Shown here piece by piece: positions 1,438 through 17,094 of a stretch of DNA of 17,094 nt. Numbering within the stretch: the first letter of the stretch is position 1; every line of letters starts with the position of its first letter. Below the pieces are notes generated by a model. That model was given only the letters and a program-made list of their open reading frames with translations. It was not told the DNA's origin and made no database searches. This DNA comes from an uncultured bacterium (GTDB lineage Bacteria > Patescibacteriota > Minisyncoccia > Phycocordibacterales > UBA1006): the NCBI GenBank assembly GCA_937898165.1, contig CALDKO010000018.1, positions 1 through 17,094 on the forward strand, given 5' to 3'. Both the position numbers and the translations under genes were made by a program.

Positions 1438-2373
1438 TTATTTATGGCTATATTTTACTTGGTCTATAAATGACTTAAATCCTTCAACATCTTCTTTGGT
1501 TCCTAATAAATGACTTTGTTCAGGACTAAATACAACATACTGCTCTTCTTCTGGAAAAGTATCGTCATCTTGTAGCCATCTATCCTTTCCTATAACAATC
1601 CCATCATAACCTTCTTTTTCTAAAGCAGTTACTAAACTACGTCGCTTTTTAAAAAACCAATCTTCATCTTCTTCACCATCTCTAAACTCAATAAGATCAT
1701 CAGACTCAAGAGCATCTTTAAACGATGTTGCTACTAAATAATGTTTTTTATGTCCAAATGCTTCCCAAAAAGTATCGTATTTCTTGAACTTAGTTATATT
1801 AACTATTGCTGGATGAACTTTATTATAATCTCTCTCAAACCTTTCACTGAACATTTCAACTGCTTTTACAGATTCAGCAAAAAAAGACATCTTTGTCTTT
1901 GGGAATTCAACCGCCATTTCTTTCAGTTTCTTTTGCTCTTTCATTAAAAAATAAACACTTGAACATACACCAAATTCTGTTTTTTCATAAAAATCCAAGT
2001 AACTTATATCTCCTCGATTTCTCCAAAATGAAGATAGCCCAGGCTCTCTTAAATCTTCTTCTGAATATTTTAGTGTAATATCTTCTCTTGTTAGACCAAA
2101 ATCGTTATGTATTTTTTCAAGTCTAGAATCGATATCAGTTTGTAATTTTATGAATTTATCATTTTTTCTTTGATCAAGATCATAAACCCTCTCTTGAAAA
2201 ACAATTTTATTTATTTTTGTCTCAGGAAAAATTGAATCTACATATTGTGAATATTGTTCTTTGGTTCCGATTTTTGATAATTCAGGATTTTGTTCAAACA
2301 CAAAATCCACTCCATCTTTTATGGTTGGAATTTTATTTACATCTATTTTCTTTTTTAGGATCAAGTTTTCCAT
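1438..2373 (-). CDS. Hypothetical protein, 311 aa, no recognisable domain
   Basis: Long uninterrupted ORF packed 3 nt after the metG stop and 3 nt before the NTase-like gene. It is an acidic, KE-rich cytoplasmic-looking protein with no motif I can assign. Confidence 0.55.
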   Translation of the reverse strand: MENLILKKKIDVNKIPTIKDGVDFVFEQNPELSKIGTKEQYSQYVDSIFPETKINKIVFQERVYDLDQRKNDKFIKLQTDIDSRLEKIHNDFGLTREDITLKYSEEDLREPGLSSFWRNRGDISYLDFYEKTEFGVCSSVYFLMKEQKKLKEMAVEFPKTKMSFFAESVKAVEMFSERFERDYNKVHPAIVNITKFKKYDTFWEAFGHKKHYLVATSFKDALESDDLIEFRDGEEDEDWFFKKRRSLVTALEKEGYDGIVIGKDRWLQDDDTFPEEEQYVVFSPEQSHLLGTKEDVEGFKSFIDQVKYSHK

Positions 2374-6342: not shown

Positions 6343-7113
6343 TTATTGAGCCTTTGGAAAAGCTAATTTTAATTTGTCCTGAGCTGCAGTCATAGCAGTT
6401 TTGAAATCACTGATAGCTTTATCAATAGCTGTTTTTCGTGTTGCAATAGCTGCATCAACATCAGCTTTTTTTGTAATAAGATCTTTTACTGCTTTAAATG
6501 CATCTTTTGCTGCTTTTATATCAGCATCAAAAGCTGCTTTTACGGTAGCTGAATCAGTTCCGGCTGTACAACTTGTTTTTGCTTTGTTGATAGCAGTAAT
6601 TCGTGCAGTATTAAATTCTGCCACAGCTGTGTCAACTTTAGATTTTTGAGTATCTGTTAATCCATCAACCGCTCCTCGGAAATCACGGATTGCAGCATCA
6701 ATAGCAGTACGACGTGCATTGATTGCTGCTGTCACAGAAGCTTTAAATTCTGTAACTGCTGCTTTTTGTACATCAGTAGTTGCTTTTGTATCAAGAGTCG
6801 CAAATCGTGTATCATGACGAGTATCTGCCTGACCTCGATGATTAGCTATTTGAGCATCTCGATCTGATCGATGACCTGCTTTTTCTGTTGCACGATCATT
6901 TCGACGAGTTTGTAGTTGTTGTAATTTTTGATTAACTTTTGTATCTAAATCTGTTGATCGTCGATCAATCATCACACAAAACTGAGAACCATCGCCTTTT
7001 AATCCTTTTGTAAGATCAACTTTATCAAGTCGAGCTGCAAAAGAGATTTGTGGAGCACTAATCACTACCAATAATACCAATGTTCCAATTTTCAAATATG
7101 TTTTTTTGTTCAT
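6343..7113 (-). CDS. Secreted alanine/threonine/lysine-rich protein with internal approximately 35-aa tandem repeats
   Basis: 256-aa ORF with a signal peptide (LKIGTLVLLVVISAPQISFAA). It is followed by a charged RSDRD segment and at least three repeats of the form F+xxVTAAINARRTAIDAAIRDF / FNTARITAINKAKT / IATRKTAIDKAISDFKTAMTAAQ. Coiled-coil/helical-repeat character; GC-richer than its neighbours. Confidence 0.6.
   Translation of the reverse strand: MNKKTYLKIGTLVLLVVISAPQISFAARLDKVDLTKGLKGDGSQFCVMIDRRSTDLDTKVNQKLQQLQTRRNDRATEKAGHRSDRDAQIANHRGQADTRHDTRFATLDTKATTDVQKAAVTEFKASVTAAINARRTAIDAAIRDFRGAVDGLTDTQKSKVDTAVAEFNTARITAINKAKTSCTAGTDSATVKAAFDADIKAAKDAFKAVKDLITKKADVDAAIATRKTAIDKAISDFKTAMTAAQDKLKLAFPKAQ
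6400..6760 (-). repeat. Imperfect in-frame tandem repeats (about 100-140 nt units) inside the secreted protein gene
   Basis: Recurring DNA blocks atcaatagctgtttttcgtgttgcaatagctgc (6421-), gttgatagcagtaattcgtgcagtatt (6588-) and atcaatagcagtacgacgtgcattgattgctgc (6700-) encode the repeated TAIDxAI motif. Confidence 0.5.
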
Positions 7114-7614: not shown

Positions 7615-8158
7615 ATGGATTGTGTTGTTTATGTAAGACTCTCATCGCGCGTGATACGGTCTGCCGAAGCGCTTCTTCGTTTTTTCCTGTAATAGCAGCA
7701 ATTTCAGGATATTCTAATTCCTGTAAATACCGCAACGTAACAATTTCACGCTGTGATTCTGGTAATGTACTCAGTATTTTTTGTATAAAATCTTTTTCAT
7801 CATATACAATAGTGTTTTGTTCTGGATCAAGCAATGAATCATCGGGGGTTTTTTCAATAAAATGTTCAAACGCATCAAAACTTATTGTATGTTTTTTACG
7901 CAAGTAATCAATGGTTTGATTACGGGCAATGGTATACAAATATTGTAATGCCTCATCTTTTCTGATCTGATCCCTATTATTAAATGCCTTGAGAAAAACT
8001 GTCTGTATAATATCCATGGTCGTTTCTTTGTCTCTAATCCTATAAAAAATGTATTTATACAGCGGTGTAAAAAATTCTGTATAGAGCACCTCAAAAGAAT
8101 CCTGGTTTTGTTTTGCATCAGGAATAACGTAATGAAAGCTTAAAAGATCTTCTTTCAT
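7604..8158 (-). CDS. ECF-type RNA polymerase sigma-70 family factor
   Basis: Region 2 (DIIQTVFLKAFNNRDQIRKDEALQYLYTIARNQTIDYLRK) and region 4 (LPESQREIVTLRYLQELEYPEIAAITGKNEEALRQTVSRAMRVL) are both recognisable. Start placed at the internal Met (MKEDLL..., 8158) because the ORF-track start at 8206 lies inside the upstream terminator hairpin; this gives a 185-aa ECF-sized product. Confidence 0.85.
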   Translation of the reverse strand: MKEDLLSFHYVIPDAKQNQDSFEVLYTEFFTPLYKYIFYRIRDKETTMDIIQTVFLKAFNNRDQIRKDEALQYLYTIARNQTIDYLRKKHTISFDAFEHFIEKTPDDSLLDPEQNTIVYDEKDFIQKILSTLPESQREIVTLRYLQELEYPEIAAITGKNEEALRQTVSRAMRVLHKQHNPYEN

Positions 8159-8194
8159 AATGGTATTACGTAGTATACCCCAAATCTGTGACAA

Positions 8195-8226
8195 ACAAAA
8201 AACCACCAGATTACTGGTGGTTTATT
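8195..8226 (-). terminator. Rho-independent terminator of the UVR-domain gene
   Basis: AAACCACCAG-atta-CTGGTGGTTT (10-bp stem), followed on the minus strand by TTTTTTTGTTTG. Confidence 0.7.
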
Positions 8227-8752
8227 TACCTTGTTTATTTTTTTCTTGTAATTGATCCCGAATTTTTGCGGCTTTTATCCAATCTTCATTTTTCTTTGCT
8301 TCCTCTAGTTCTTTTTCAAGTTCTTGGATCTCTGTAAGAGGTATATGCTCATCAATTTCAATTGGTTCTACATTTAATATTGGAATAGCTTCTTCGTTTT
8401 CATCTACTAATTCTAATTTAACACTTGAAAAGTGTATATATTTTCCGATATAACGCATAAAGTAATGATAGGCACCATCACTCTCTAATTCGAGAGGTTG
8501 ATCTAATTCAGTAAGATCGAGCATCCAATCGCGATCACTGAAGCCTGGTCCCAATCTGGTTATCGGAACATATTCAAACTTTTTATTCTCTTCAATGTCT
8601 TGTTCAAAAACAACTTCATTTTCGATATCAATAAAAATTCCTTTCCTTGTTGCTATTAAGTCATCTATCAAAATAAAAACTTTTTTGCCGACAAGGGTGT
8701 TCTCGATTCGATCTTCAAATTTCATTACCCTAACGGTTCCTTTAACTGGCAT
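8222..8752 (-). CDS. Hypothetical protein with C-terminal UVR (UvrB/UvrC-type) motif
   Basis: 176-aa ORF whose C-terminus IQELEKELEEAKKNEDWIKAAKIRDQLQE matches the UVR helical hairpin motif found in UvrB and McsA. The remainder is acidic and unassigned. Confidence 0.6.
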   Translation of the reverse strand: MPVKGTVRVMKFEDRIENTLVGKKVFILIDDLIATRKGIFIDIENEVVFEQDIEENKKFEYVPITRLGPGFSDRDWMLDLTELDQPLELESDGAYHYFMRYIGKYIHFSSVKLELVDENEEAIPILNVEPIEIDEHIPLTEIQELEKELEEAKKNEDWIKAAKIRDQLQEKNKQGK

Positions 8753-8795
8753 AGCGATTAATTTTATTTTGTTATCAATTATATGTTTCTCAGAA

Positions 8796-8824
8796 ACAAT
8801 ATCACGAATATTTTAAATGGTCAA
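8796..8824 (-). promoter_or_regulatory. Candidate promoter for the UVR-domain gene (minus strand, TTGACC-N17-TATTGT)
   Basis: The reverse complement reads TTGACC(8824-8819)-17 nt-TATTGT(8801-8796). A GTTTCT-c-AGAAAC inverted repeat sits at the predicted transcription start (8785-8797). Confidence 0.35.
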
Positions 8825-8828
8825 TTAT

Positions 8829-8852
8829 AAAAACCACCGGACGGTGGTTTTT
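8829..8852 (-). terminator. Rho-independent terminator of the Excalibur-domain gene
   Basis: AAACCACCG-ga-CGGTGGTTT stem with T-runs on both sides. The stem sequence is nearly identical to the terminator at 8195-8226. Confidence 0.6.
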
Positions 8853-9225
8853 ATTTAACTCCTTTTGGTAAACTCTCACATGCTTGACCATCATTATTAC
8901 CATCCAATCGATTGGTATCTTTACTTGGGCCACCAGCATTAATGAAAAACTTTTGAGCTTCTGGTTGAGTTTCAAAATCATCACAGTTATATTCATCAGT
9001 TGCCTTTCCTCCTTCCGTTACGACATTACCTTCCTTATCACGCATAACCTTTGCATCTGCCATCGATGACCCAGATAACAGCTTCCCCAGATCCCAATCG
9101 TTGTTGGTTGCCTCTAATCCGAATCCTGCCAAGAGAATTCCAATAACACCAATCAACACTGGTTTTATAATTTTCTTTGTACCTTCACTCGCATTTGCAA
9201 GTGGTTTAAATTTTGGAATTGCCAT
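8851..9225 (-). CDS. Membrane-anchored Excalibur (extracellular calcium-binding) domain protein
   Basis: 124-aa ORF with an N-terminal TM (IIKPVLIGVIGILLAGFGL). The C-terminus YNCDDFETQPEAQKFF...DTNRLDGNNDGQACESLP matches the Excalibur DxDxDGxxCE signature. Confidence 0.75.
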   Translation of the reverse strand: MAIPKFKPLANASEGTKKIIKPVLIGVIGILLAGFGLEATNNDWDLGKLLSGSSMADAKVMRDKEGNVVTEGGKATDEYNCDDFETQPEAQKFFINAGGPSKDTNRLDGNNDGQACESLPKGVK

Positions 9226-9236
9226 ATATATTTACC

Positions 9237-9324
9237 AAACTGAATATAATAAATAAGCTGCGACCAGGATCAGCACTACTATAATAATGAGGCGCACATT
9301 TTTGTTTCCACGTATGTTTTGCAT
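9237..9324 (-). CDS. Candidate 29-aa hydrophobic micro-ORF upstream of the Excalibur gene
   Basis: MQNIRGNKNVRLIIIVVLILVAAYLLYSVW-stop: a charged N-terminus then a single TM-like helix. It ends 11 nt before the Excalibur gene ATG, has no clear SD, and is below the ORF-track length cutoff. Confidence 0.2.
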
Positions 9325-9373
9325 AGCTACAGTATAGCGTGGTTTGGCTACATATTCCACTATGGTATATTAT

Positions 9374-9401
9374 TTGACAAATAATAATAGTATGCTAATA
9401 T
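9374..9401 (+). promoter_or_regulatory. Candidate sigma-70 promoter TTGACA-N16-TAATAT in the 375-bp divergent intergenic region
   Basis: TTGACA at 9374-9379 and TAATAT at 9396-9401. It lies about 200 nt upstream of the flotillin-like ORF; a perfect TATAAT (9534-9539) without a good -35 lies closer. Confidence 0.3.
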
Positions 9402-9601
9402 GATAGAAACAGTATATACATTGTAAAATACGCAGTTTTTGGTGCCTAGGTACCAAAATCGCCGGACAAAATTTACCATTTGGTTGTTAACCAAAGTCTG
9501 TCATTCAGGTAAATGGAAGTAATTATCCCTAAGTATAATTTGACATGATCACGTCAGAAACAACGATCAAAAAATTCATAAACACATAAAAAGAAATTTA
9601 G

Positions 9602-11962
9602 ATGTTAGACACAATTTTAGCAATTTTAACGCATTTTGTGGTACCAATAATCATTATTGGTATCATCCTCTTTGTGATTTTAAATTCATTCACCATAGCA
9701 AAAGGTGACGAGATTATCACACTGGAAAGACGTTGGTTTGGTGCACAGATGCCTGATGGCAGAACTGTTGCCCTAAGTAACGAAGTAGGTATTCAAGCAA
9801 GAATACTTGGACCGGGATTTCACTGGTTAATACCTTTTATTTATAAAACAACCAAACACAAATTCATTGTTATTGAAAAAAACATGATTGGTGTTGTCCG
9901 GGCAATAACCGGTGCACCTATCCCTACTGGAGAAGTTATGGCGAAAAAAATCAGTTGTGATTTATTCCAGGACGGTGAAGCATTTTTGAAAAACGGTGGA
10001 GAAAAAGGACCCCAGTTAGACATTTTACCGGACGGTGAATATAAAATTAATCCTCATTTGTTTGAGGTTGATATTGTTCCCGCAACAATCGTTGGTGACG
10101 ATGAAATTGCCGTAATTGAATCAATTGCAGGTAAACAAATCAGTCGCCCTGGTGGACGTTTTGGTAAACCTGTTGATTGTGAAGATTTTGAAAATGCAGA
10201 CCTGTTTTTACAAAACGGTGGAGAAAAAGGACCCCAGATTGCTTTTCTAAAGACCGGATTTTATCGTATTAATACGATCTTATTCAAAATAGAAAAGAGA
10301 CGAATCGTTGAAATTGAAGGTGGTAAAATTGGCCTCATTGAAGCCGCTGATGGAGAAAGAATTCCGGAAGGGCGATTATTGGCCAAAAAAATTGACGGCC
10401 ATAGTAACTTCTTTGACGGCCAGGCATTCATTGCTAACGGCGGTGAACGTGGACGTCAACTGGATGTTCTTATGCCGGGTAAATACCCAATCAATACAAT
10501 GCTGTTCAAAATCATCGAAGTAGTTGATTGGACAAATGTTCAAGCCGATCAGGTAGGTATTGTAACTGTAAAGGAAGGTCTGCCTATTGTAGACCCCACA
10601 AAGATTGCAGCCGAAGAATTGGGCTTGGATGTTCACAATAACTTCCAGGACTCAGCAGCGTTTTTAAACGCAAAGGGCCAAAAAGGTTTGCAGATACCGG
10701 TACTTCGTGCAGGTAATTATGCAATTAACCCTTGGTTTGCTGCTGTCGAAAAAGTTGAAATGACGCGCGTCGATATCGGATTCTGCGGTGTAGTTACCAG
10801 CTTCGTTGGTGAAGAAGGTGAAGACGTAAGTGGTGAAGATGTAAATGCAAAAATTGTTGAAAACGGTAAAAAAGGTATATGGGCAAACCCATTAGAACCT
10901 GGTAAGCACCCTATCAACACAAAAATCTGTAAGGTTGATATTGTTCCAACAACTCAAATATTATTGAATTGGGCAAACAATCAATCAAGTGCGCATGAGT
11001 TAGATTCTAACCTGAGCACTATTACATTACGTACCGCAGATGCATTTAGTGTAAACATGGACGTTTCCGTGATCATACACATTCCGATGAAAAACGCCCC
11101 AAAAGTAATCGCAAACTTAGGTTCTGTGAAAAATATGATTTCTCAGGTTCTTGAACCGGCAATCAGTTCACATTTCCGTAATGCTGCGCAATATATTAAA
11201 GCGTTAGACCTGTACACTGAGCGTAGAGAGCTGCAAGCAAAAGCAAAAGCTCATATCGACGCTGTTCTAAAAGTTCACCATATCGATTCAAAGGAAACTC
11301 TGATTGCAGATGTTGTATTGCCGGGTGAATTAACTAAGACAGTGACCGATCGACAAATTGCTGAGCAGGAAAAAGCAACCTATAAAACTCAAAAAGATGC
11401 CCAAATCGAAAGACGTGGACTTGAAAATGAGACAGCTCAAGCTAACATGCAAACAAAAGTTGTTGAATCTGAACGTAATGTTGAGATTGAGAAAAATATT
11501 GCAGACGGAAAAATCAAATCTGCAGAAGGTTTGAAAAAAGCTGCGATATTAAGTGCAGAAGGTACATCGGAAGCTACCAAACTGAATGCTGCTGCAAACG
11601 CAGAAGCAACAAAACTTACTGCTGGCGCAAACGCAGAAGCTACCAAACTGAATGCTGCTGCCGACAAAGAGAAAGGTATGGCTGAAGCTGCGGTTATCCT
11701 TGAAAAAGGTAAATCTACTGCTGAGGCTTATAAACTCGAAGTAGCCGCTATGGGTCAAGAAAATTTCGGAAGAATAAACTCTTTAAAAGAGGTCAAAGAA
11801 CTGAAATTGAAACTTGTTCCTGATGTTCTCATCATGGGCGGTGGTTCCGAAGGTGGTAGTATGGAAAACTTCTTTAAATTATCATTACTTGAAAAAGTAA
11901 CCGGTAAAGATTTCTTAGCAATTGCTCAAGAAGCCACAAAAAAAGAAGAAGAGAGAAAATAA
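9602..11962 (+). CDS. Flotillin/SPFH (band 7)-family membrane protein with an expanded tandem-repeat N-terminal region
   Basis: 786-aa ORF with an N-terminal TM (VVPIIIIGIILFVIL). It then has an SPFH-like start (ITLERRWFGAQMPDGRTVALSNEVGIQARILGPGFHWLIPF) and 5 repeated units of the pattern F.dG.AFL.NGGEKG.Q...L.pG.Y.INP.LF.V.IV. The SPFH core follows (LRTADAFSVNMDVSVIIHIP ... ISQVLEPAISSHFRNAAQYIKALDLYTERRELQAKAKAHI), then an EA/K-rich flotillin-type helical region and a C-terminal LIMGGGSEGG. Confidence 0.8.
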   Translation: MLDTILAILTHFVVPIIIIGIILFVILNSFTIAKGDEIITLERRWFGAQMPDGRTVALSNEVGIQARILGPGFHWLIPFIYKTTKHKFIVIEKNMIGVVRAITGAPIPTGEVMAKKISCDLFQDGEAFLKNGGEKGPQLDILPDGEYKINPHLFEVDIVPATIVGDDEIAVIESIAGKQISRPGGRFGKPVDCEDFENADLFLQNGGEKGPQIAFLKTGFYRINTILFKIEKRRIVEIEGGKIGLIEAADGERIPEGRLLAKKIDGHSNFFDGQAFIANGGERGRQLDVLMPGKYPINTMLFKIIEVVDWTNVQADQVGIVTVKEGLPIVDPTKIAAEELGLDVHNNFQDSAAFLNAKGQKGLQIPVLRAGNYAINPWFAAVEKVEMTRVDIGFCGVVTSFVGEEGEDVSGEDVNAKIVENGKKGIWANPLEPGKHPINTKICKVDIVPTTQILLNWANNQSSAHELDSNLSTITLRTADAFSVNMDVSVIIHIPMKNAPKVIANLGSVKNMISQVLEPAISSHFRNAAQYIKALDLYTERRELQAKAKAHIDAVLKVHHIDSKETLIADVVLPGELTKTVTDRQIAEQEKATYKTQKDAQIERRGLENETAQANMQTKVVESERNVEIEKNIADGKIKSAEGLKKAAILSAEGTSEATKLNAAANAEATKLTAGANAEATKLNAAADKEKGMAEAAVILEKGKSTAEAYKLEVAAMGQENFGRINSLKEVKELKLKLVPDVLIMGGGSEGGSMENFFKLSLLEKVTGKDFLAIAQEATKKEEERK
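9719..10966 (+). repeat. Five to six in-frame tandem protein repeats (about 60-75 aa each) within the flotillin-like gene
   Basis: Units begin near aa 40, 120, 195, 268, 345 and 415. Units 2 and 3 share an identical 26-nt core aaaacggtggagaaaaaggaccccag (9990-10015 and 10213-10238). Later units are diverged (ctaacggcggtgaacgtggacgtcaactg). Confidence 0.65.
11570..11665 (+). repeat. 33-nt tandem repeat, about 3 copies, encoding EATKLNAAANA / EATKLTAGANA / EATKLNAAADK
   Basis: gaagctaccaaactgaatgctgctgcaaacgca, gaagcaacaaaacttactgctggcgcaaacgca, gaagctaccaaactgaatgctgctgccgac, lying in the flotillin-domain EA-rich helix. Confidence 0.6.
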
Positions 11963-11992
11963 TTAAATAGATTTTGGTTTTATAAACCAAAA

Positions 11993-12017
11993 CCCGTCTC
12001 AATTGAGACGGGTTTTT
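11993..12017 (+). terminator. Rho-independent terminator of the flotillin-like gene
   Basis: CCCGTCTC-aatt-GAGACGGG followed by TTTTTAT. It is preceded by a second AT-only hairpin TTTTGGTTT-tat-AAACCAAAA (11972-11992). Confidence 0.7.
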
Positions 12018-12034
12018 ATGTATTATTTTTATAA

Positions 12035-12070
12035 CAAAAAAACAGGATGTATAACATCCTGTTTTGTTTT
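12035..12070. terminator. Bidirectional intrinsic terminator (serves the minus-strand gene ending at 12089)
   Basis: A6-AACAGGATGT-ata-ACATCCTGTT-TTGTTTT: a 10-bp stem with A/T runs on both sides. Confidence 0.65.
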
Positions 12071-12088
12071 ATTTAATTTTAAAACATA

Positions 12089-13804
12089 TTACAAAAACAT
12101 GTACCACGGCTTTGGGTAAAAGTTCGATAACTTTTGTATGATATTCATCCATTCCTGTGTTTCTTCCGGAAATAAATCCAGCAATTGCTTTACTTTCAAT
12201 GGATCACGTTGAGATCGTAGATAATTATCTAACAATTCTGATGATTTTTCATAAGCAATTTTTCTGTTTACAGAATCTGCAGACATCCCATTGAAAAAGT
12301 TTATCGCCTCTTCAACATCTTGAAACCTTTTGATTTTTTTCAATTCCAACTCTTGTTCTTCCAGTTTTTGTTGCTGTAATAAATTTTCAGCAGCTTCTTC
12401 TGGTGTCGGTGTTTCAATAACAGGAGTCTGTATCTCAGGTTCAACGTAGGCAGATACTTTTTGACCAAATTTCTTTGCCATCAGATATTCTGCATAGGAA
12501 TTACGATCAATTGAAACAGTATTAGCATCATCAGCAGATGAACAAAGTTCAACAGCTTTTAAGTCTAACTGTTTTTTTTCATTTGAATCTTCCTCTACAT
12601 ATTCTTCCAACTTTTCCAGATCATTTAATGAAGCTTTTTTGATAGCCTCGGTGATGTATTTATCCAGTTTCTCCCGAGCTAACTGCTCCAGATAACCATC
12701 ATTGTTTGCGATAATACCATTCAATTCGTCATGATCTTCTACCAGAGAAACAAGTTTCTCTTCTAAGATTTTTCGGTTTACATCGTCTTTATCAAATTCG
12801 TTAATGATATCCTCAAGCTCGTTGGTATCGGTCAGGTTTTTTGCATAAGCCATCGTTAAGTCTGTTTTTTTCTTATTGGCCATTCTACCAACCCGTGATT
12901 CACTATCGAACCCATCAATGATTTCATCCAATGTTTCACAATGTTCATAATCATTAGATTGTTCGATGACAGCCAACGCTAGAATTTCATACGCTTCCGA
13001 TGAACTGTTAAACGCTCCTGATTCATTCCATAAACTTTCTGGGTCATTCGGACATAATGTAGCAATTTTTTGTGCTAACATTACCTCTTCGTCACTTCCG
13101 GTTGTAGGGATGTAATCATTAATACCTTCTGTATCATCAATGGATGTCATAGCAGAAATTTCTTTCCGCACTAATTCCATATGCTTCTGGATTAATGCAT
13201 AATATTCCCAAGTTCCCTCATCGAAATTCTGATTATCAATAATTTCTTTGGTTTCTGATGCAGAAGTCGCCAGGGACAGAATTTTTTCTACTATTATTTT
13301 TTTTGAATCATCGTAATAGTTTTCATCCTCGTATAATGAAATTAATTCATCAATTGAGTTTTCGTTTTTGATCGTGTCGGACTCTATTTTGAAAATTTTA
13401 TCAATCAAAAGAGTTTCTTCATTACTGCCTGATGGAGTTTGCTGGAGTAATTCTTCTAATTCGTCCTTATCATTCGTATTTTCATACGTTTCTTTGATCA
13501 ATCCAATTAATTTTTCATAGGCAACCACGTATCCAACCTCATCAAAAGAAAGAGTGGAGAGAATCCCCCATAATGTATCAACATCGTCAGCTTCTTTTAT
13601 TTGTTGCTGGATATCAATCTTTTGTACTGGTGGAACATAAACCGGTTGTTTCCTTTCTAGGACATAATAAACGTCCTGTGTAGTAAAACTTAATTTCCTG
13701 GGTTTACAATTTCCTGTTAAAATTTCTGCTACTTCTGTTTTTGACATTCCTAAATCCTGTGCAAGTTTTGAAATGTTCACATCTTTTACCGAGTTGTATT
13801 TCAT
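12089..13804 (-). CDS. Large, highly acidic (D/E-rich) hypothetical protein with N-terminal helix-turn-helix
   Basis: 571-aa ORF whose N-terminus VNISKLAQDLGMSKTEVAEILTG reads as an HTH. The rest is low-complexity acidic helical sequence with no enzymatic motif. It is divergent from the palindrome at 13896-13932. Confidence 0.6.
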   Translation of the reverse strand: MKYNSVKDVNISKLAQDLGMSKTEVAEILTGNCKPRKLSFTTQDVYYVLERKQPVYVPPVQKIDIQQQIKEADDVDTLWGILSTLSFDEVGYVVAYEKLIGLIKETYENTNDKDELEELLQQTPSGSNEETLLIDKIFKIESDTIKNENSIDELISLYEDENYYDDSKKIIVEKILSLATSASETKEIIDNQNFDEGTWEYYALIQKHMELVRKEISAMTSIDDTEGINDYIPTTGSDEEVMLAQKIATLCPNDPESLWNESGAFNSSSEAYEILALAVIEQSNDYEHCETLDEIIDGFDSESRVGRMANKKKTDLTMAYAKNLTDTNELEDIINEFDKDDVNRKILEEKLVSLVEDHDELNGIIANNDGYLEQLAREKLDKYITEAIKKASLNDLEKLEEYVEEDSNEKKQLDLKAVELCSSADDANTVSIDRNSYAEYLMAKKFGQKVSAYVEPEIQTPVIETPTPEEAAENLLQQQKLEEQELELKKIKRFQDVEEAINFFNGMSADSVNRKIAYEKSSELLDNYLRSQRDPLKVKQLLDLFPEETQEWMNIIQKLSNFYPKPWYMFL

Positions 13805-13895
13805 TGGTGTTTTAATTTTTTAAAGTTCATGCTAAATCATCAGCGATTTATGGGGTTGCAGCAAATATCCCGTTTGCAACAGTGTACTATATAAA

Positions 13896-13932
13896 TATAA
13901 CTGTGTCAAATATATTATTTGACACAGTTATA
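13896..13932. promoter_or_regulatory. Perfect 17-bp inverted repeat (3-nt spacer) in the divergent promoter region; candidate operator
   Basis: TATAACTGTGTCAAATA-tat-TATTTGACACAGTTATA. Each arm contains TTGACA reading outward. On the plus strand, TTGACA(13919-13924)-N17-TAGTGT lies just before the ATG at 13961. The symmetric arrangement faces the minus-strand gene that starts at 13804. Confidence 0.6.
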
Positions 13933-13960
13933 CAAATAAAGTAGTGTAAAGAAAAAAGAT

Positions 13961-14764
13961 ATGTTAGGACCAAAAAATTTAATCCTTGTCAGACACGGTA
14001 GATCTGAAGGAAATTCCGTGAACAGCAAGTTCAGAAAATCGGGAATGAGCGAATTATTTACTCAAGAATTCCTGGACAGACATGAATCAGAGTATCGCCT
14101 AACCGAACAAGGTGTCAAACAGGCAAAAGAAGCTGGAGATTGGCTGGTAAATAATTTTAACGAAGCTTTTGATCGAATGTATGTTTCGACCCATATTCGT
14201 GCGATGGAAACAGCTGCACATCTGGGGTTACCTGGAAACTGGATAACAGATTTCCGATTACGGGAACGCGATGGCGGATTGTTTAATACTCTTTCACCCA
14301 AAGAACGCGACGAATTATTCAAACACCAACAGAAACATGCAAAGGAAAAACCGTTTTTATGGAGACCTCCGCAGGGCGAGTCAATTGCTGATGTAACGCT
14401 TCGAATGAAAAGTGTTATCGAGACGCTATACCGTGAATTTGAAGGAAAAAACGTGATTATCGTTAATCACGGTCATGTGATACGAGCATTTCGCATTCTA
14501 CTCGAACGAGTTCAGAATTATGATGAATTATGCAGCAACCAAGGCGAATACGCGGTTCATAATTGCTCAATCTGGCATTACACAAGACAAAATCCAAAAA
14601 ATCCAACAGAACGATTGAGTAGTAATTTAAATTGGGTACGTACTATTGATCCAACCACTGATTACAATCAACATGTCGGCGAATGGAAAACGATTGTAAG
14701 GAAAAAATACACCAACGAAGAATTATTCAGAGAAGTAGAAAAAATTGCTCGATTAAAAAAATAA
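13961..14764 (+). CDS. Histidine phosphatase superfamily (phosphoglycerate-mutase-like, branch 1) protein
   Basis: 267-aa ORF with the catalytic RHG motif (LILVRHGRSEGN) and a second His region (IIVNHGHVIRAF); the PPQGES segment is typical of the PGAM-like fold. Confidence 0.85.
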   Translation: MLGPKNLILVRHGRSEGNSVNSKFRKSGMSELFTQEFLDRHESEYRLTEQGVKQAKEAGDWLVNNFNEAFDRMYVSTHIRAMETAAHLGLPGNWITDFRLRERDGGLFNTLSPKERDELFKHQQKHAKEKPFLWRPPQGESIADVTLRMKSVIETLYREFEGKNVIIVNHGHVIRAFRILLERVQNYDELCSNQGEYAVHNCSIWHYTRQNPKNPTERLSSNLNWVRTIDPTTDYNQHVGEWKTIVRKKYTNEELFREVEKIARLKK

Positions 14765-14768
14765 AAAC

Positions 14769-14797
14769 AAACCTTCCCTACTACAGGGAAGGTTTTT
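14769..14797. terminator. Bidirectional intrinsic terminator
   Basis: AAACCTTCCCT-actaca-GGGAAGGTTT followed by TTTATTT; the minus strand reads TTGTTTTTAT after the stem. Serves both the plus-strand phosphatase gene and the minus-strand small ORF. Confidence 0.7.
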
Positions 14798-15044
14798 ATT
14801 TAGTATCATTATATGGCCAATAATCAGGTGTGCATATTTGAATCGTTTGATTTGGTTGAGTTATACAAACGGTTCTCTTTGGCCAGGTAACCAATAGTTG
14901 GAAAATGCCAATTAATACCATTGCCAATGTTAGTAAGGTAACTACACGAGTTAGTTTGATCATTTCCTTGGTAGTATTGCGTTCTTCTTTTTCCAAACGA
15001 TCCAGGGAGTCATCTATTTCTTTAAAATTTTCATTTTGGTTCAT
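14796..15044 (-). CDS. Small single-TM membrane protein, hypothetical
   Basis: 82-aa ORF with a charged N-terminus, one hydrophobic helix (VVTLLTLAMVLIGIFQLLV) and a Cys-containing tail. Lies 24 nt downstream of the GNAT gene, with a terminator directly after its stop. Confidence 0.4.
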   Translation of the reverse strand: MNQNENFKEIDDSLDRLEKEERNTTKEMIKLTRVVTLLTLAMVLIGIFQLLVTWPKRTVCITQPNQTIQICTPDYWPYNDTK

Positions 15045-15068
15045 ATACCCCAGTATACCAAAAATAAC

Positions 15069-15500
15069 CTATTTTGTTTTCATAACCACAATACGATATC
15101 CAACCATTGGTGCAATAAATATATCAAATAATTGCTTTCGTAATTTCATAACACCTGCCGGATGATCCACGACTGAAAAACCATAACGGCTATAAATTTC
15201 TGACATGCCTGGTGTACAGAGTAAGTATAATTCTGAGTAATCATTTTTGGCCTGATCAGATAATTGCTCTGCATATCCATGACGACGAAATTCAGGATAT
15301 ACATACAATGTTCCCAGTTCTGTTGTATCACCAAACTGTTTTATAGTTAAAAACCCAACTATGTTTTCTTTATCATATCCCACATATATTTTTGAGTTTT
15401 TAAAAATTACCAACGGATCAAGAGTTGGTGTGTTTTTTATAATAGTCCACATAATTTTAGGATAATGTAACACCGTAGACTTAATTATATTCATATACAA
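15069..15500 (-). CDS. GNAT-family N-acetyltransferase
   Basis: 143-aa ORF with acetyl-CoA binding motif A (LGTLYVYPEFRRHGYAEQL) of appropriate size. Confidence 0.8.
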   Translation of the reverse strand: MYMNIIKSTVLHYPKIMWTIIKNTPTLDPLVIFKNSKIYVGYDKENIVGFLTIKQFGDTTELGTLYVYPEFRRHGYAEQLSDQAKNDYSELYLLCTPGMSEIYSRYGFSVVDHPAGVMKLRKQLFDIFIAPMVGYRIVVMKTK

Positions 15501-15513
15501 ATTATATCATACA

Positions 15514-15542
15514 AAAAAACCGCTTTGTTAAAAAGCGGTTTT
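15514..15542 (-). terminator. Rho-independent terminator of the apt gene
   Basis: AAACCGCTTT-gttaa-AAAGCGGTTT with flanking A7/T4 runs. Confidence 0.65.
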
Positions 15543-15559
15543 GTACTTAATAGTACATA

Positions 15560-16165
15560 TTAATATTTTACCAATGAAACAATTTTGTCATCAGAAACAT
15601 ATTTCCGAAGAATTTCACGACCTGGTAAAAATGTTAATTCCATAACAAAGTGAAAGCCAATAATTTCAGCTCCACATTTTTTGATAATTTCTGCAGCAGC
15701 CGATGCTGTGCCACCTGTTGCCAGCAAATCATCATGGATTAACACACGATCACCTGACTGAATCAACCCTTTTTGAACCTGAATAGTTTCAAATTGCTTT
15801 CCGCCATCTGCTTTATATTCCTTTTTAAATGTTTGTGAGACCACCTTACCAGGAAGCTTTCCTGGTTTTCTGGCCATGATCATCGGTACAAATGCGGCAG
15901 AGGCAAGACTGAAACCAAACAAAAACCCTCTCGCATCAAAACAAACAATTTTATTAAACGCATGATCACCAGCCTGATCTCTTGGTAATAATTGTTTCAA
16001 GAAATGAAGTGTTTCGCTGGATAATTCTGGATCACACAAAATACTTTGTATGTCTTTAAATTTAACTTTTGGCTCTGGGAAATTATAAAATGTCTTAATC
16101 TTTTTTTTCAGAAATTTCTCGAATTCCTGAATGTCTTTAAAATCTGTAATTGTTGGTGTTTTCAC
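15560..16165 (-). CDS. apt: Adenine phosphoribosyltransferase with approximately 45-aa N-terminal extension
   Basis: PRPP-binding motif VLIHDDLLATGGTASAAAEII. FKDIQSILCDPE and ARGFLFG...KPGKLPG align with E. coli Apt. Confidence 0.9.
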   Translation of the reverse strand: MKTPTITDFKDIQEFEKFLKKKIKTFYNFPEPKVKFKDIQSILCDPELSSETLHFLKQLLPRDQAGDHAFNKIVCFDARGFLFGFSLASAAFVPMIMARKPGKLPGKVVSQTFKKEYKADGGKQFETIQVQKGLIQSGDRVLIHDDLLATGGTASAAAEIIKKCGAEIIGFHFVMELTFLPGREILRKYVSDDKIVSLVKY

Positions 16166-16250
16166 TTTTTTAAATTTATAAGGTATGCAATATCAATTCA
16201 CTGTAACTATATCATATGGGCATTTAGTGTCAAATGTACATTATAAGAAA

Positions 16251-16283
16251 ATTCCTACTCTTTCATCCTGAAAGAGTAGGAAT
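16251..16283 (-). terminator. Long hairpin terminator of the Nudix-like gene
   Basis: ATTCCTACTCTTTCA-tcc-TGAAAGAGTAGGAAT (15-bp stem); the minus strand has TTTTCTT after the stem. Confidence 0.55.
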
Positions 16284-16293
16284 GTATTATTAT

Positions 16294-16824
16294 TTAAAAC
16301 TGATCCAACGCAGGCTTATTACCTGTTTTCAGATAGTCTGCATAAGCAACTAACATGTGCCCGTGATCAAGCCCAAAATCATCCGGGTTAACAATGTTAA
16401 CATCGATATAAAATGCTTCAGACCCTTCATCTCCATCTGGAGCTGGTTCACTGTTAGATTCTGCCATGAGAACGATATCAAACGAATGATATGTTTCAAT
16501 CTGAATATCATGAGGGATACCATCGGGAAATTCATTACCATCCAAAAACCATTCCAGTTTCAATGTGCGAACATCACGCAAAGGCTTTGATCCTGTGCAA
16601 AAGAAACTGATCATTTTCAAGTCAGTTATACTGACCTCTTCTTTTGCTTCAATGATCAATGTCTGCAACCAATTATGATGTCCAACTTTTACCTTACCTC
16701 CCGGCAGAACAAGTTTATTGCCATGCTTGCCCGTACTGCGAAGCACTACTACCATCCATGGCTCGGTTTCCTTGTAAATAATACCAGTAGATGTCGGTAT
16801 TGCAGGTTTCAAAAGATTGTTCAT
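16294..16824 (-). CDS. Nudix-fold hydrolase-like protein with a partly degenerate Nudix box
   Basis: PGGKVKVGHHNWLQTLIIEAKEEVSI aligns with the MutT box PGGKIEMGETPEQAVVRELQEEVGI. EAKEEV is retained (the RE-x2-EE core), but the Gx5E Glu is replaced by His and the box Arg by Ile. Confidence 0.5.
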   Translation of the reverse strand: MNNLLKPAIPTSTGIIYKETEPWMVVVLRSTGKHGNKLVLPGGKVKVGHHNWLQTLIIEAKEEVSITDLKMISFFCTGSKPLRDVRTLKLEWFLDGNEFPDGIPHDIQIETYHSFDIVLMAESNSEPAPDGDEGSEAFYIDVNIVNPDDFGLDHGHMLVAYADYLKTGNKPALDQF

Positions 16825-16938
16825 AATGTATTTTTTTAATGATGAATTTATTCAATTCATACTAACAAGAAAAATAGATATTGTCAATAATTGATAGTTA
16901 AGAAAAAATAAAAAACACTCCCGGTATGGGAATGCTTT

Positions 16939-17043
16939 TTATTTTTTCTTTGTAGTTTTTACAACTTTCTTTGCAATAACTTTTGCTGATGCAGCTGTTT
17001 TCACTGCTTTTTTAACAGCAGCTTTTAAACCTGTGTCAGTTGC
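16939..17043 (-). CDS. Partial CDS (5' part lost at contig end): Lys/Ala-rich C-terminal tail, histone H1/HU-tail-like
   Basis: Minus-strand frame reads ...ATDTGLKAAVKKAVKTAASAKVIAKKVVKTTKKK-stop (stop rc at 16939-16941). The frame continues into adapter sequence, so the true upstream part is missing. Confidence 0.3.
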   Translation of the reverse strand, partial: ATDTGLKAAVKKAVKTAASAKVIAKKVVKTTKKK

Positions 17044-17094
17044 AGATCGGAAGAGCACACGTCTGAACTCCAGTCACATCACGTTATCTCGTAT
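17044..17094. other. Illumina TruSeq indexed-adapter read-through (technical artefact, not genomic)
   Basis: AGATCGGAAGAGCACACGTCTGAACTCCAGTCAC + index-like ATCACGTT + ATCTCGTAT: an exact match to the TruSeq index adapter backbone, present at the 3' contig end. Confidence 0.9.

What the first reader, a model, noticed from the sequence alone, without database searches (positions are those of the whole stretch)
17044..17094. Contig terminates in Illumina TruSeq adapter read-through
AGATCGGAAGAGCACACGTCTGAACTCCAGTCAC-ATCACGTT-ATCTCGTAT is adapter plus index, not biology. It means reads were not fully trimmed before assembly. The true genomic continuation after 17043 is unknown, and the last minus-strand gene (K/A-rich tail protein, 16939-17043) is artificially truncated. 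Any ORF or frame extension into 17044-17094 is spurious. It also raises the prior for other assembly artefacts such as repeat collapse in 9700-11000.
Basis: established knowledge. Interest (0 to 1): 0.55.

Follow-up and report, generated by a model that had tools for sequence, protein, structure and literature searches.

The report
Illumina adapter left on contig end
The last 51 bases of this contig are a synthetic Illumina sequencing adapter with its sample barcode, so they should be trimmed; other assemblies of the same bacterium show the real sequence that follows.

Summary
Confirmed artefact. Window 17044-17094 matches the TruSeq-type i7 adapter exactly: 34-nt constant part, then the 8-nt index ATCACGTT, then the first 9 nt of P7. 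About 1e-22 such matches are expected by chance. The window is the whole 17,094-nt contig, so the adapter sits at a true contig end in forward orientation. This is the pattern already described for MGnify and other genome databases (PMC11536531).

Three independent assemblies of the same or closely related Candidatus Saccharibacteria locus match the window up to 17045. They then continue with CTATTTTTTTTGTAAC..., not with adapter.

The truncated minus-strand gene is a 202-aa CxxC-x17-CxxC zinc-finger protein (TIGR04272/PF23477) with a K/A-rich C-terminal tail. Only its last 34 codons and stop codon remain. A 39-aa ORF (16939-17058, minus strand) that starts at a GTG inside the adapter is spurious.

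A sister contig from the same project series ends in the same adapter with a different index (TAGCTTGT), so incomplete trimming appears recurrent in this series.

The window's 786-aa SPFH protein is full length, like 119 of its top 120 homologues. The sister contig is the one missing a 222-nt repeat unit. There is no biological novelty.

The parts
17044..17077 (+). Constant part of the Illumina TruSeq-type indexed (i7-side) adapter as seen by Read 1 read-through: the A-tail/ligation stem AGATCGGAAGAGC followed by the complement of the Read-2 primer site.
   Evidence: It matches 34/34 exactly and is unique in the window; 0 of 200 shuffles gave a hit. It is the reverse complement of GTGACTGGAGTTCAGACGTGTGCTCTTCCGATCT. 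The same backbone is printed in the P7 index primers of PMC10484680.
17078..17085 (+). 8-nt i7 sample index ATCACGTT (reverse complement AACGTGAT).
   Evidence: It sits exactly between the 34-nt constant part and ATCTCGTAT. AACGTGAT is 'indexT1' in published P7 index primers (PMC10484680). Sister contig L014 has a different 8-mer, TAGCTTGT, at the same position, and its reverse complement ACAAGCTA is in the same primer set.
17086..17094 (+). First 9 nt (ATCTCGTAT) of the P7 flow-cell binding sequence. The contig ends inside it.
   Evidence: It is a prefix of ATCTCGTATGCCGTCTTCTGCTTG and the reverse complement of ...ATACGAGAT in the P7 primers of PMC10484680.
16939..17043 (-). Genuine 3' end (34 codons plus TAA) of a 202-aa CxxC-x17-CxxC zinc-finger gene with a K/A-rich C-terminal tail. 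Its 5' 168 codons are cut off by the adapter-terminated contig end.
   Evidence: It translates to ATDTGLKAAVKKAVKTAASAKVIAKKVVKTTKKK*. This is identical to the C-terminus of the 202-aa ORF L001:751-1359. That ORF hits PF23477 (60.1 bits, cut-off 27) and TIGR04272 (59.8 bits, cut-off 36) at residues 60-96. Forty-two homologues carry PF23477, and most are around 200 aa.
16939..17058 (-). Spurious 39-aa ORF. Its GTG start and first 5 codons (M/V-L-F-R-S) are encoded by the adapter and fused in frame to the genuine 34-codon gene remnant.
   Evidence: the ORF listing reports it. The in-frame TGA at 17074-17076 stops any longer extension. This exact 39-aa product is not in the 15-billion-protein collection.
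16919..16931 (.). G+C-rich hairpin flanked by T/A runs, between the zinc-finger gene's stop codon and the NUDIX gene's promoter-like site. It is a likely terminator of the truncated gene. This is genuine sequence, listed as context only.
   Evidence: One terminator-like site was found against 0.1 expected in shuffles, and a promoter-like TTGACA-17-TAGTAT lies at 16887-16859 on the minus strand. The region is identical in L001.
9990..10237 (+). One repeat unit inside the 786-aa SPFH/flotillin gene, bounded by two 26-nt exact repeats (9990-10015 and 10212-10237). Sister contig L014 lacks 222 nt here.
   Evidence: The longest exact direct repeat in 9600-11100 is 26 nt, at 9990 and 10212. L014 joins window 10015 directly to 10238, a 222-nt difference. 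The resulting protein is 713 aa against 786 aa. Of the top 120 homologues, 119 are 765-827 aa. The alignment with a 777-aa homologue from a 426-kb contig has no gaps between residues 65 and 664.

Best explanation
Window 17044-17094 is synthetic. It is the Illumina TruSeq-type i7 adapter: the ligation stem and Read-2 primer site, the 8-nt index ATCACGTT, and the start of P7.

Mechanism:
- A library fragment ended at genomic base 17043 and was A-tailed and ligated to the adapter.
- Its insert was shorter than the read length, so Read 1 ran through the insert into the adapter.
- The reads were not, or not fully, adapter-trimmed before de Bruijn-graph assembly.
- In this low-coverage population the adapter-bearing read or reads extended the contig as a dead-end tip, and the contig was output with 51 nt of adapter.

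Consequences: the contig stops inside a gene, and that 202-aa CxxC-x17-CxxC zinc-finger gene keeps only its last 34 codons. A 39-aa ORF with an adapter-encoded start can be called by mistake. The true sequence after 17043 is AGCTATTTTTTTTGTAACAACTTCTTC..., as in sibling assemblies.

Shown here: the identity of the sequence, its absence from homologous loci, the truncation, and recurrence in a sister assembly.

Inferred: the short-insert read-through, the lack of trimming, and the low-coverage tip. It is also an inference whether the adapter caused the break or merely capped a coverage gap.
For: - The match to adapter, index and P7 is exact: 34/34 and 9/9 around an 8-nt index. The chance expectation is about 1e-22.
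- The index is a published P7 index, AACGTGAT = indexT1 (PMC10484680).
- The adapter is in forward orientation at the 3' end of a complete contig. This is the pattern reported for adapter-contaminated MGnify and other genomes (PMC11536531).
- L001 is 99.95% identical to the window over 15014-17045, then continues with non-adapter sequence.
- L013 and L003 agree with L001 across the junction. They also agree for 969 nt beyond it, at 100% and 94.8% identity to L001.
- Sister contig L014 (ERZ650265) ends in the same adapter with index TAGCTTGT, from the same index set. There the window itself supplies the true continuation, inside its sigma-factor gene at about 8053.
- The sibling contigs carry SPAdes-style coverage values of about 2-4x, consistent with a tip that survives at low depth.
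- GC content is 47% in the tail against 35.6% in the rest of the contig.
Against: No result argues against it. Three points remain open.

- No reads are available, so the short-insert read-through, the number of supporting reads and the cause of the contig break are inferred.
- The adapter stretch is 51 nt here and 49 nt in L014, so termination is not at a fixed adapter position. I cannot say what set the length (read end, quality trimming or assembler behaviour).
- Only 9 nt of P7 are present, so the rest of P7 cannot be checked.
Confidence: 0.97

Rival explanations
1. It is still an artefact, but not a simple short-insert read-through. The alternatives are a library chimera (an adapter or adapter-dimer ligated internally to a fragment) or sequence added after assembly.
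For: The contig ends inside the adapter, so whatever followed it in the source read or reads cannot be seen. Adapter lengths differ between the two contaminated contigs, 51 nt against 49 nt.
Against: The adapter starts at its first base directly after the insert, with the expected A. It then continues in the canonical order stem, Read-2 site, index, P7, which is exactly what read-through gives. Forward orientation at contig 3' ends is the signature of read-through contamination (PMC11536531). A chimera would more often be internal to a contig.
Confidence: 0.02
2. The 51 nt are genuine genomic sequence of the organism, by chance resemblance or natural acquisition.
For: There is none beyond its presence in a deposited contig.
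Against: About 1e-22 matches are expected by chance. Three independent assemblies of the locus, one 99.95% identical, carry a different and mutually consistent sequence that completes a conserved 202-aa gene. In frame, the adapter would replace the conserved gene body with a stop codon. The index position varies by sample in a sister contig.
Confidence: 0.001
3. The adapter is a sign of a generally unreliable contig, with collapsed repeats at 9700-11000 or chimeric joins elsewhere.
For: - Two assemblies disagree with the window.
- L014 lacks 222 nt between the 26-nt repeats at 9990 and 10212.
- L001 diverges at 15014 into a Sipho_Gp157 gene.
- The related MAG contig L012 lacks window 9339-15060 altogether.
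Against: - The window's 786-aa protein has the family-typical length; 119 of the top 120 homologues are 765-827 aa.
- It aligns to a 777-aa homologue from a 426-kb contig with no gaps between residues 65 and 664, so the short form is the odd one out.
- DNA repeats in that region are at most 72% identical over 69 nt, and the longest exact repeat is 26 nt.
- The arrangement across 15014 is confirmed by L005 (99.96% over 13228-16055) and nine other contigs.
- The left edge of the 9339-15060 segment is spanned by L014, at 99.95% over 8053-10015.
- No internal adapter is present.
Confidence: 0.05

Closest known systems
Illumina TruSeq-type indexed adapter (i7 side), as trimmed by cutadapt, Trimmomatic or fastp and screened by UniVec or FCS-adaptor
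   Same: The 34-nt constant sequence is identical. An index of allowed length sits at the canonical position, followed by the canonical start of P7.
   Different: The index is 8 nt (ATCACGTT), not the 6-nt TruSeq LT index ATCACG. From my own knowledge, not tested here, it is the 8-nt extension used in Sanger-type iPCRtag primers and several commercial kits. The library kit cannot be named from the sequence.
Adapter contamination at contig extremities in public microbial genome databases (Moeller et al. 2024, BMC Genomics, PMC11536531)
   Same: A forward-orientation adapter lies at the very end of a contig, adjacent to the forward-specific part CACACGTCTGAACTCCAGTCA. The assemblies are of ENA/MGnify style, and the contig is broken inside a gene.
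   Different: This is one more instance of the same pattern. In this case the missing continuation could be recovered from sibling assemblies, and a second contaminated contig from the same series was found.
CxxC-x17-CxxC domain proteins (TIGR04272 / PF23477 zf_Tbcl_2), common in Patescibacteria/CPR
   Same: The full-length version of the truncated gene (L001:751-1359) matches both models above their cut-offs. Its homologues are annotated accordingly, some of them in Candidatus Paceibacterota.
   Different: The window retains only the K/A-rich tail, without the zinc-finger domain. From the window alone the gene could be mistaken for a histone-H1-like or 'tail' peptide.

Membership tests
Illumina TruSeq-type i7 adapter read-through | 13-nt ligation stem AGATCGGAAGAGC directly after the insert, with its leading A from A-tailing | tested here: met
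   It matches exactly at 17044-17056 and is the only occurrence in the window even with 2 mismatches allowed.
Illumina TruSeq-type i7 adapter read-through | Complement of the Read-2 sequencing-primer site (ACACGTCTGAACTCCAGTCAC) following the stem. This distinguishes the i7 arm from the i5/universal arm (GTCGTGTAGGGAAAGAGTGT). | tested here: met
   The 34/34 match covers 17044-17077. Only the shared first 13 nt match the Read-2-side (universal) adapter.
Illumina TruSeq-type i7 adapter read-through | Index of 6-8 nt at adapter position 35 that belongs to a real index set and varies between samples | tested here: met
   The window has ATCACGTT, the reverse complement of AACGTGAT (indexT1 in PMC10484680). 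Sister contig L014 from another sample has TAGCTTGT at the same position, and its reverse complement is in the same primer table.
Illumina TruSeq-type i7 adapter read-through | P7 sequence ATCTCGTATGCCGTCTTCTGCTTG after the index | tested here: met
   The first 9 nt are present and exact at 17086-17094. The remaining 15 nt lie beyond the contig end and cannot be tested.
Illumina TruSeq-type i7 adapter read-through | Absence from the homologous genomic locus in independent data | tested here: met
   L001, L013 and L003 all continue CTATTTTTTT... after ...GTTGCAG. L001 is 99.95% identical to the window up to 17045.
Illumina TruSeq-type i7 adapter read-through | Position at a contig extremity, forward at the 3' end or reverse-complemented at the 5' end | tested here: met
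   The window is the whole 17,094-nt contig and the adapter occupies its last 51 nt in forward orientation. The pattern is as described in PMC11536531.
Illumina TruSeq-type i7 adapter read-through | Junction supported only by short-insert reads whose mates overlap fully | not testable with these tools
   No read data are available.
CxxC-x17-CxxC domain protein (TIGR04272 / PF23477), for the truncated gene | 37-residue CxxC-x17-CxxC treble-clef zinc-finger domain scoring above the curated cut-off | tested here: met
   This was tested on the full-length orthologue L001:751-1359, which is identical to the window over the shared 34 codons. PF23477 scores 60.1 bits (cut-off 27) and TIGR04272 scores 59.8 bits (cut-off 36), at residues 60-96. 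The domain lies in the part missing from the window.

The most novel reading that the evidence does not exclude
The adapter is certainly an artefact. The most novel reading left open concerns the contig itself, which comes from a Candidatus Saccharibacteria population with strain-variable content at two places close to the artefact. The first is a 5.7-kb segment (window ~9339-15060) that carries a flotillin-like SPFH gene 77% identical to Chitinophagales proteins. A related MAG lacks it, and one near-identical contig has a phage Gp157-like gene in its place. The second is a different gene neighbourhood upstream of the NUDIX gene in that MAG. If real, this would be a cargo-swapping hotspot with cross-phylum gene transfer in a CPR bacterium. 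It would also mean the contig break near 17043 has a biological contributor (strain microdiversity) as well as the adapter.
Probability: 0.15. Interest if true: 0.3.

Novelty: not a real feature. Interest (0 to 1): 0.04.

Why it matters
This matters only for data hygiene.

- The 51 nt should be trimmed and the contig end flagged.
- The 39-aa ORF that starts in the adapter must not be annotated.
- The terminal gene should be marked partial.
- A second contig from the same ERZ6502xx series carries the same adapter with another index. The whole assembly series therefore probably needs adapter screening and re-assembly, which PMC11536531 shows can improve contiguity.
- There is no consequence for biology. 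For anyone who needs the locus, the missing gene (a 202-aa CxxC-x17-CxxC protein) and about 1.25 kb of continuation can be taken from L001 and L013.

Tried and rejected
- A literature search for the bare 8-mer ATCACGTT was too unspecific: 683 papers, mostly unrelated primers. Searching the index in its adapter context found the primer table in PMC10484680.
- A scan of viral contigs for the exact 51-mer gave 0 hits.
- A literature search for SRP135725, the study named in the title of MAG contig L012, gave 0 papers. The sample type remains unknown.
- An exact look-up of the spurious 39-aa ORF found that it is not in the protein collection, so I have no evidence that it was propagated.
- The look-up of encoding contigs for the 786-aa protein reported nothing on record, although the cluster look-up knows the protein. 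I worked around this through cluster member P0044 and locus L014.
- I considered whether the contig ends at a k-mer hub inside the adapter. I rejected this as an explanation of the length, because the adapter stretch is 51 nt here and 49 nt in L014. I could not work out what sets the length.
- The 'phage tail protein' reading of the K/A-rich ORF is rejected. It is the C-terminus of a cellular zinc-finger protein.
- Repeat collapse in the window at 9700-11000 is rejected.
- A chimeric join in the window at 15014 is rejected, because L005 and nine other contigs span it.

Full report
**Observation.** The end of the window reads ...CCTGTGTCAGTTGC|AGATCGGAAGAGCACACGTCTGAACTCCAGTCAC|ATCACGTT|ATCTCGTAT.
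- The 34-mer AGATCGGAAGAGCACACGTCTGAACTCCAGTCAC occurs once, at 17044-17077 on the + strand, with 0 mismatches. Nothing else in the window comes within 3 mismatches on either strand, and none of 200 dinucleotide-preserving shuffles gave a hit.
- A script confirmed the parse: the constant part, then an 8-nt index, then ATCTCGTAT, which is a prefix of the P7 sequence ATCTCGTATGCCGTCTTCTGCTTG.
- A 6-nt index parse fails, because it leaves TT unexplained.
- From the window's base composition, about 9e-23 matches to the 43 fixed bases are expected on both strands.
- The tail is 47% GC against 35.6% for the rest of the window.
- No 11-mer of the TruSeq Read-1 or Read-2 adapters, Nextera, P5 or P7 occurs elsewhere in the window. 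The 5' end is clean.
- The proteins of the window are on record on a contig of exactly 17,094 nt, with sources NCBI and ENA. The window is therefore the whole contig, and the adapter sits at a real contig end.

**The index is a real index.** A published primer table (PMC10484680) lists the primer 'Rev-P7-indexT1' as CAAGCAGAAGACGGCATACGAGAT-AACGTGAT-GTGACTGGAGTTCAGACGTGTGCTCTTCCGATC. Its reverse complement is exactly the window's adapter, index and P7. From my own knowledge, ATCACG is TruSeq index 1, and the 8-nt form is used in Sanger-type and several commercial index sets. I did not test which kit was used.

**Independent sequence across the junction.** An exact-protein look-up of the neighbouring NUDIX gene (16294-16824, minus strand) returned L001, a contig from a different assembly (ERZ650289 NODE_5215, 3,972 nt).
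- L001 is 99.95% identical to window 15014-17045, with 1 mismatch in 2,032 nt.
- At 17046 the two part. The window continues ATCGGAAGAGC..., and L001 continues CTATTTTTTTTGTAACAACTTCTTC....
- Two further assemblies show the same continuation in a four-way alignment: L013 (ERZ650271 NODE_7971) and the more distant L003 (ERZ724529, about 81% identical to the window).
- Beyond the junction, L001 is 100% identical to L013 and 94.8% identical to L003 over 969 nt.
An insert ending at 17043, plus the A-tail and GATCGG, reproduces the observed string. An insert ending at 17044 or 17045 would not. This last point is inference from adapter chemistry.

**What was cut off.** The minus-strand frame gives ATDTGLKAAVKKAVKTAASAKVIAKKVVKTTKKK*, from 17043 down to the TAA at 16941-16939.
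- In L001 this is the C-terminus of a 202-aa ORF. That ORF has a G/R-rich N-terminus, a CxxC-x17-CxxC zinc finger at residues 60-96 and the K/A-rich tail.
- It scores 60.1 bits on PF23477 zf_Tbcl_2 (cut-off 27) and 59.8 bits on TIGR04272 (cut-off 36).
- Forty-two homologues all carry PF23477. Most are around 200 aa, and some are annotated in Candidatus Paceibacterota.
- The window thus keeps 34 of 202 codons. The intact gene would span 16939 to about 17547.
- It is not a phage tail protein.

**Spurious ORF.**
- Reading on into the adapter gives ...M*LEFRRVLFRS fused to ATDTG.
- The in-frame TGA blocks an edge-running partial gene.
- A GTG at 17058 yields a 39-aa ORF, MLFRSATDTG...KKK, whose first five codons are adapter.
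- That product is not in the protein collection.

**Trimming failure appears recurrent in this series.** I fetched L014 (ERZ650265 NODE_6920) to test the repeat-collapse idea, and it turned out to end in ...CACCGCTGTAT|AGATCGGAAGAGCACACGTCTGAACTCCAGTCAC|TAGCTTGT|ATCTCGT.
- The backbone is the same and the 8-mer at the index position is different. Its reverse complement ACAAGCTA is in the same published primer table.
- Here the window supplies the truth: it continues ...CTGTATAAATACATTTTT through its sigma-factor gene at about 8053.
- Moeller et al. 2024 (PMC11536531) describe exactly this pattern in MGnify and other genome databases. Forward adapters concentrate at contig ends, next to CACACGTCTGAACTCCAGTCA, and reverse complements concentrate at contig beginnings. 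They argue that such contamination breaks contigs.
- The sibling contigs carry SPAdes-style k-mer coverages of about 2-4x. This fits a surviving low-depth tip, although I do not know the coverage of the window's own contig.

**Mechanism.**
- Shown: the 51 nt are adapter, index and P7. They are absent from the locus in other assemblies. They truncate a gene and create a false ORF.
- Inferred:
  - A fragment ending at 17043 had an insert shorter than the read, so Read 1 ran into the i7 adapter.
  - The reads were not adapter-trimmed, or not fully.
  - The assembler kept the adapter-bearing extension as the contig end.
- Not decidable without reads: whether the adapter caused the break or merely capped a coverage gap. 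The adapter stretch is 51 nt here and 49 nt in L014, so termination is not at a fixed adapter position.

**The side claim of repeat collapse at 9700-11000.** The 786-aa ORF (9602-11962) is an SPFH/Band_7 protein with five divergent repeats of roughly 74 aa upstream of the Band_7 domain.
- At DNA level the best repeat pair is 72% identical over 69 nt. The longest exact repeat is 26 nt, at 9990 and 10212.
- L014 is 99.95% identical on the left side and 98.6% on the right, but it joins window 10015 directly to 10238. It lacks exactly 222 nt between those two 26-mers, which gives a 713-aa protein.
- Of the 120 best homologues from many phyla, 119 are 765-827 aa, and the only short one is that 713-aa protein.
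- A 777-aa homologue from a 426-kb contig aligns with no gaps between residues 65 and 664.
- The 33-nt tandem array at 11570-11661 has the same copy number in L014's protein and in the partial cluster member P0045.
- The window is therefore the full-length form. The collapse or deletion, if it is an artefact, is in the sister contig.

**Other cross-checks of the contig.**
- L005 (99.96%, window 13228-16055) and nine further contigs confirm the order GNAT, 82-aa ORF, His_Phos, 571-aa ORF.
- L014 spans 8053-10015.
- L001 is the outlier at 15014 (see noticed in passing).

**Context.** The contig encodes the following:
- MetRS, MsrB, a thioesterase and an ECF-type sigma factor;
- an Excalibur-domain protein and the SPFH protein;
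- a histidine phosphatase, a GNAT acetyltransferase, adenine phosphoribosyltransferase and a NUDIX hydrolase.

The closest species-representative genome contig is titled 'uncultured Candidatus Saccharibacteria bacterium' (L012, 81-91% nucleotide identity).

**Verdict.** This is a known technical artefact, not a biological feature. Trim 17044-17094, mark the terminal gene partial and screen the assembly series. Interest is very low.

Noticed in passing
L014:1-49 (ena:ERZ650265:NODE_6920), equivalent to window ~8053: A sister contig from another sample of the same ERZ6502xx series also ends in the TruSeq i7 adapter, with index TAGCTTGT. It breaks off inside the sigma-factor gene, which is intact in the window. 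This points to incomplete trimming across the series.
   Followed up: yes
window 9990-10237 (26-nt exact repeats at 9990-10015 and 10212-10237): L014 lacks exactly 222 nt (one 74-aa repeat unit of the SPFH protein) between the two 26-nt repeats, giving 713 aa instead of 786 aa. By comparison with 119 homologues, the window's form is the normal one. Whether the short form is a collapse or a real deletion allele is open.
   Followed up: partly
window ~9339-15060: This 5.7-kb segment holds the SPFH gene, a 571-aa acidic ORF with no Pfam hit, a histidine phosphatase and an 82-aa ORF with a hydrophobic stretch. The related Saccharibacteria MAG contig L012 lacks it and joins 15061 almost directly to 9338. 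Both edges carry CAGTATA, which could be chance. The SPFH protein is 66-78% identical to proteins from Chitinophagales, Thermoanaerobaculia, Verrucomicrobiota and others, which suggests horizontal transfer.
   Followed up: partly
window 15014 / L001:3285-3972: L001 is otherwise 99.95% identical to the window. It diverges after the first roughly 10 codons of the 82-aa ORF (14796-15044, minus strand) and continues with a Sipho_Gp157-like phage gene (PF05565, E = 3.5e-31) that lacks the first 35 model positions. The window's arrangement is backed by L005 and nine other contigs. The L001 segment was not found in any other fetched locus. It could be alternative cargo at a hotspot or a chimera in L001.
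   Followed up: partly
window 16889 onward / L012:1-4493: In MAG contig L012, homology with the window stops at 16889. The genes upstream of the NUDIX gene are a 154-aa ORF and a 366-aa ORF, neither of which was scanned against a domain library. There is no CxxC-x17-CxxC gene. The neighbourhood just beside the artefact is therefore also strain-variable.
   Followed up: no
window 11982-12023: A near-perfect palindrome (27 nt exact: AAAACCCGTCTCAATTGAGACGGGTTT) lies between the convergent SPFH gene and the 571-aa gene. It is probably a bidirectional terminator.
   Followed up: no
window 1438-2373 (minus strand): A 311-aa ORF has only a sub-threshold hit to ART-PolyVal, the ADP-ribosyltransferase of polyvalent proteins (23.7 bits, cut-off 31.2). 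It lies directly downstream of MetRS.
   Followed up: no
window 6343-7113 (minus strand) and 12089-13804 (minus strand): Two sizeable ORFs have no Pfam hit. One is a 256-aa A/T/K/D-rich ORF with a hydrophobic N-terminus that may be a signal peptide. The other is a 571-aa, very acidic E/D-rich protein.
   Followed up: no
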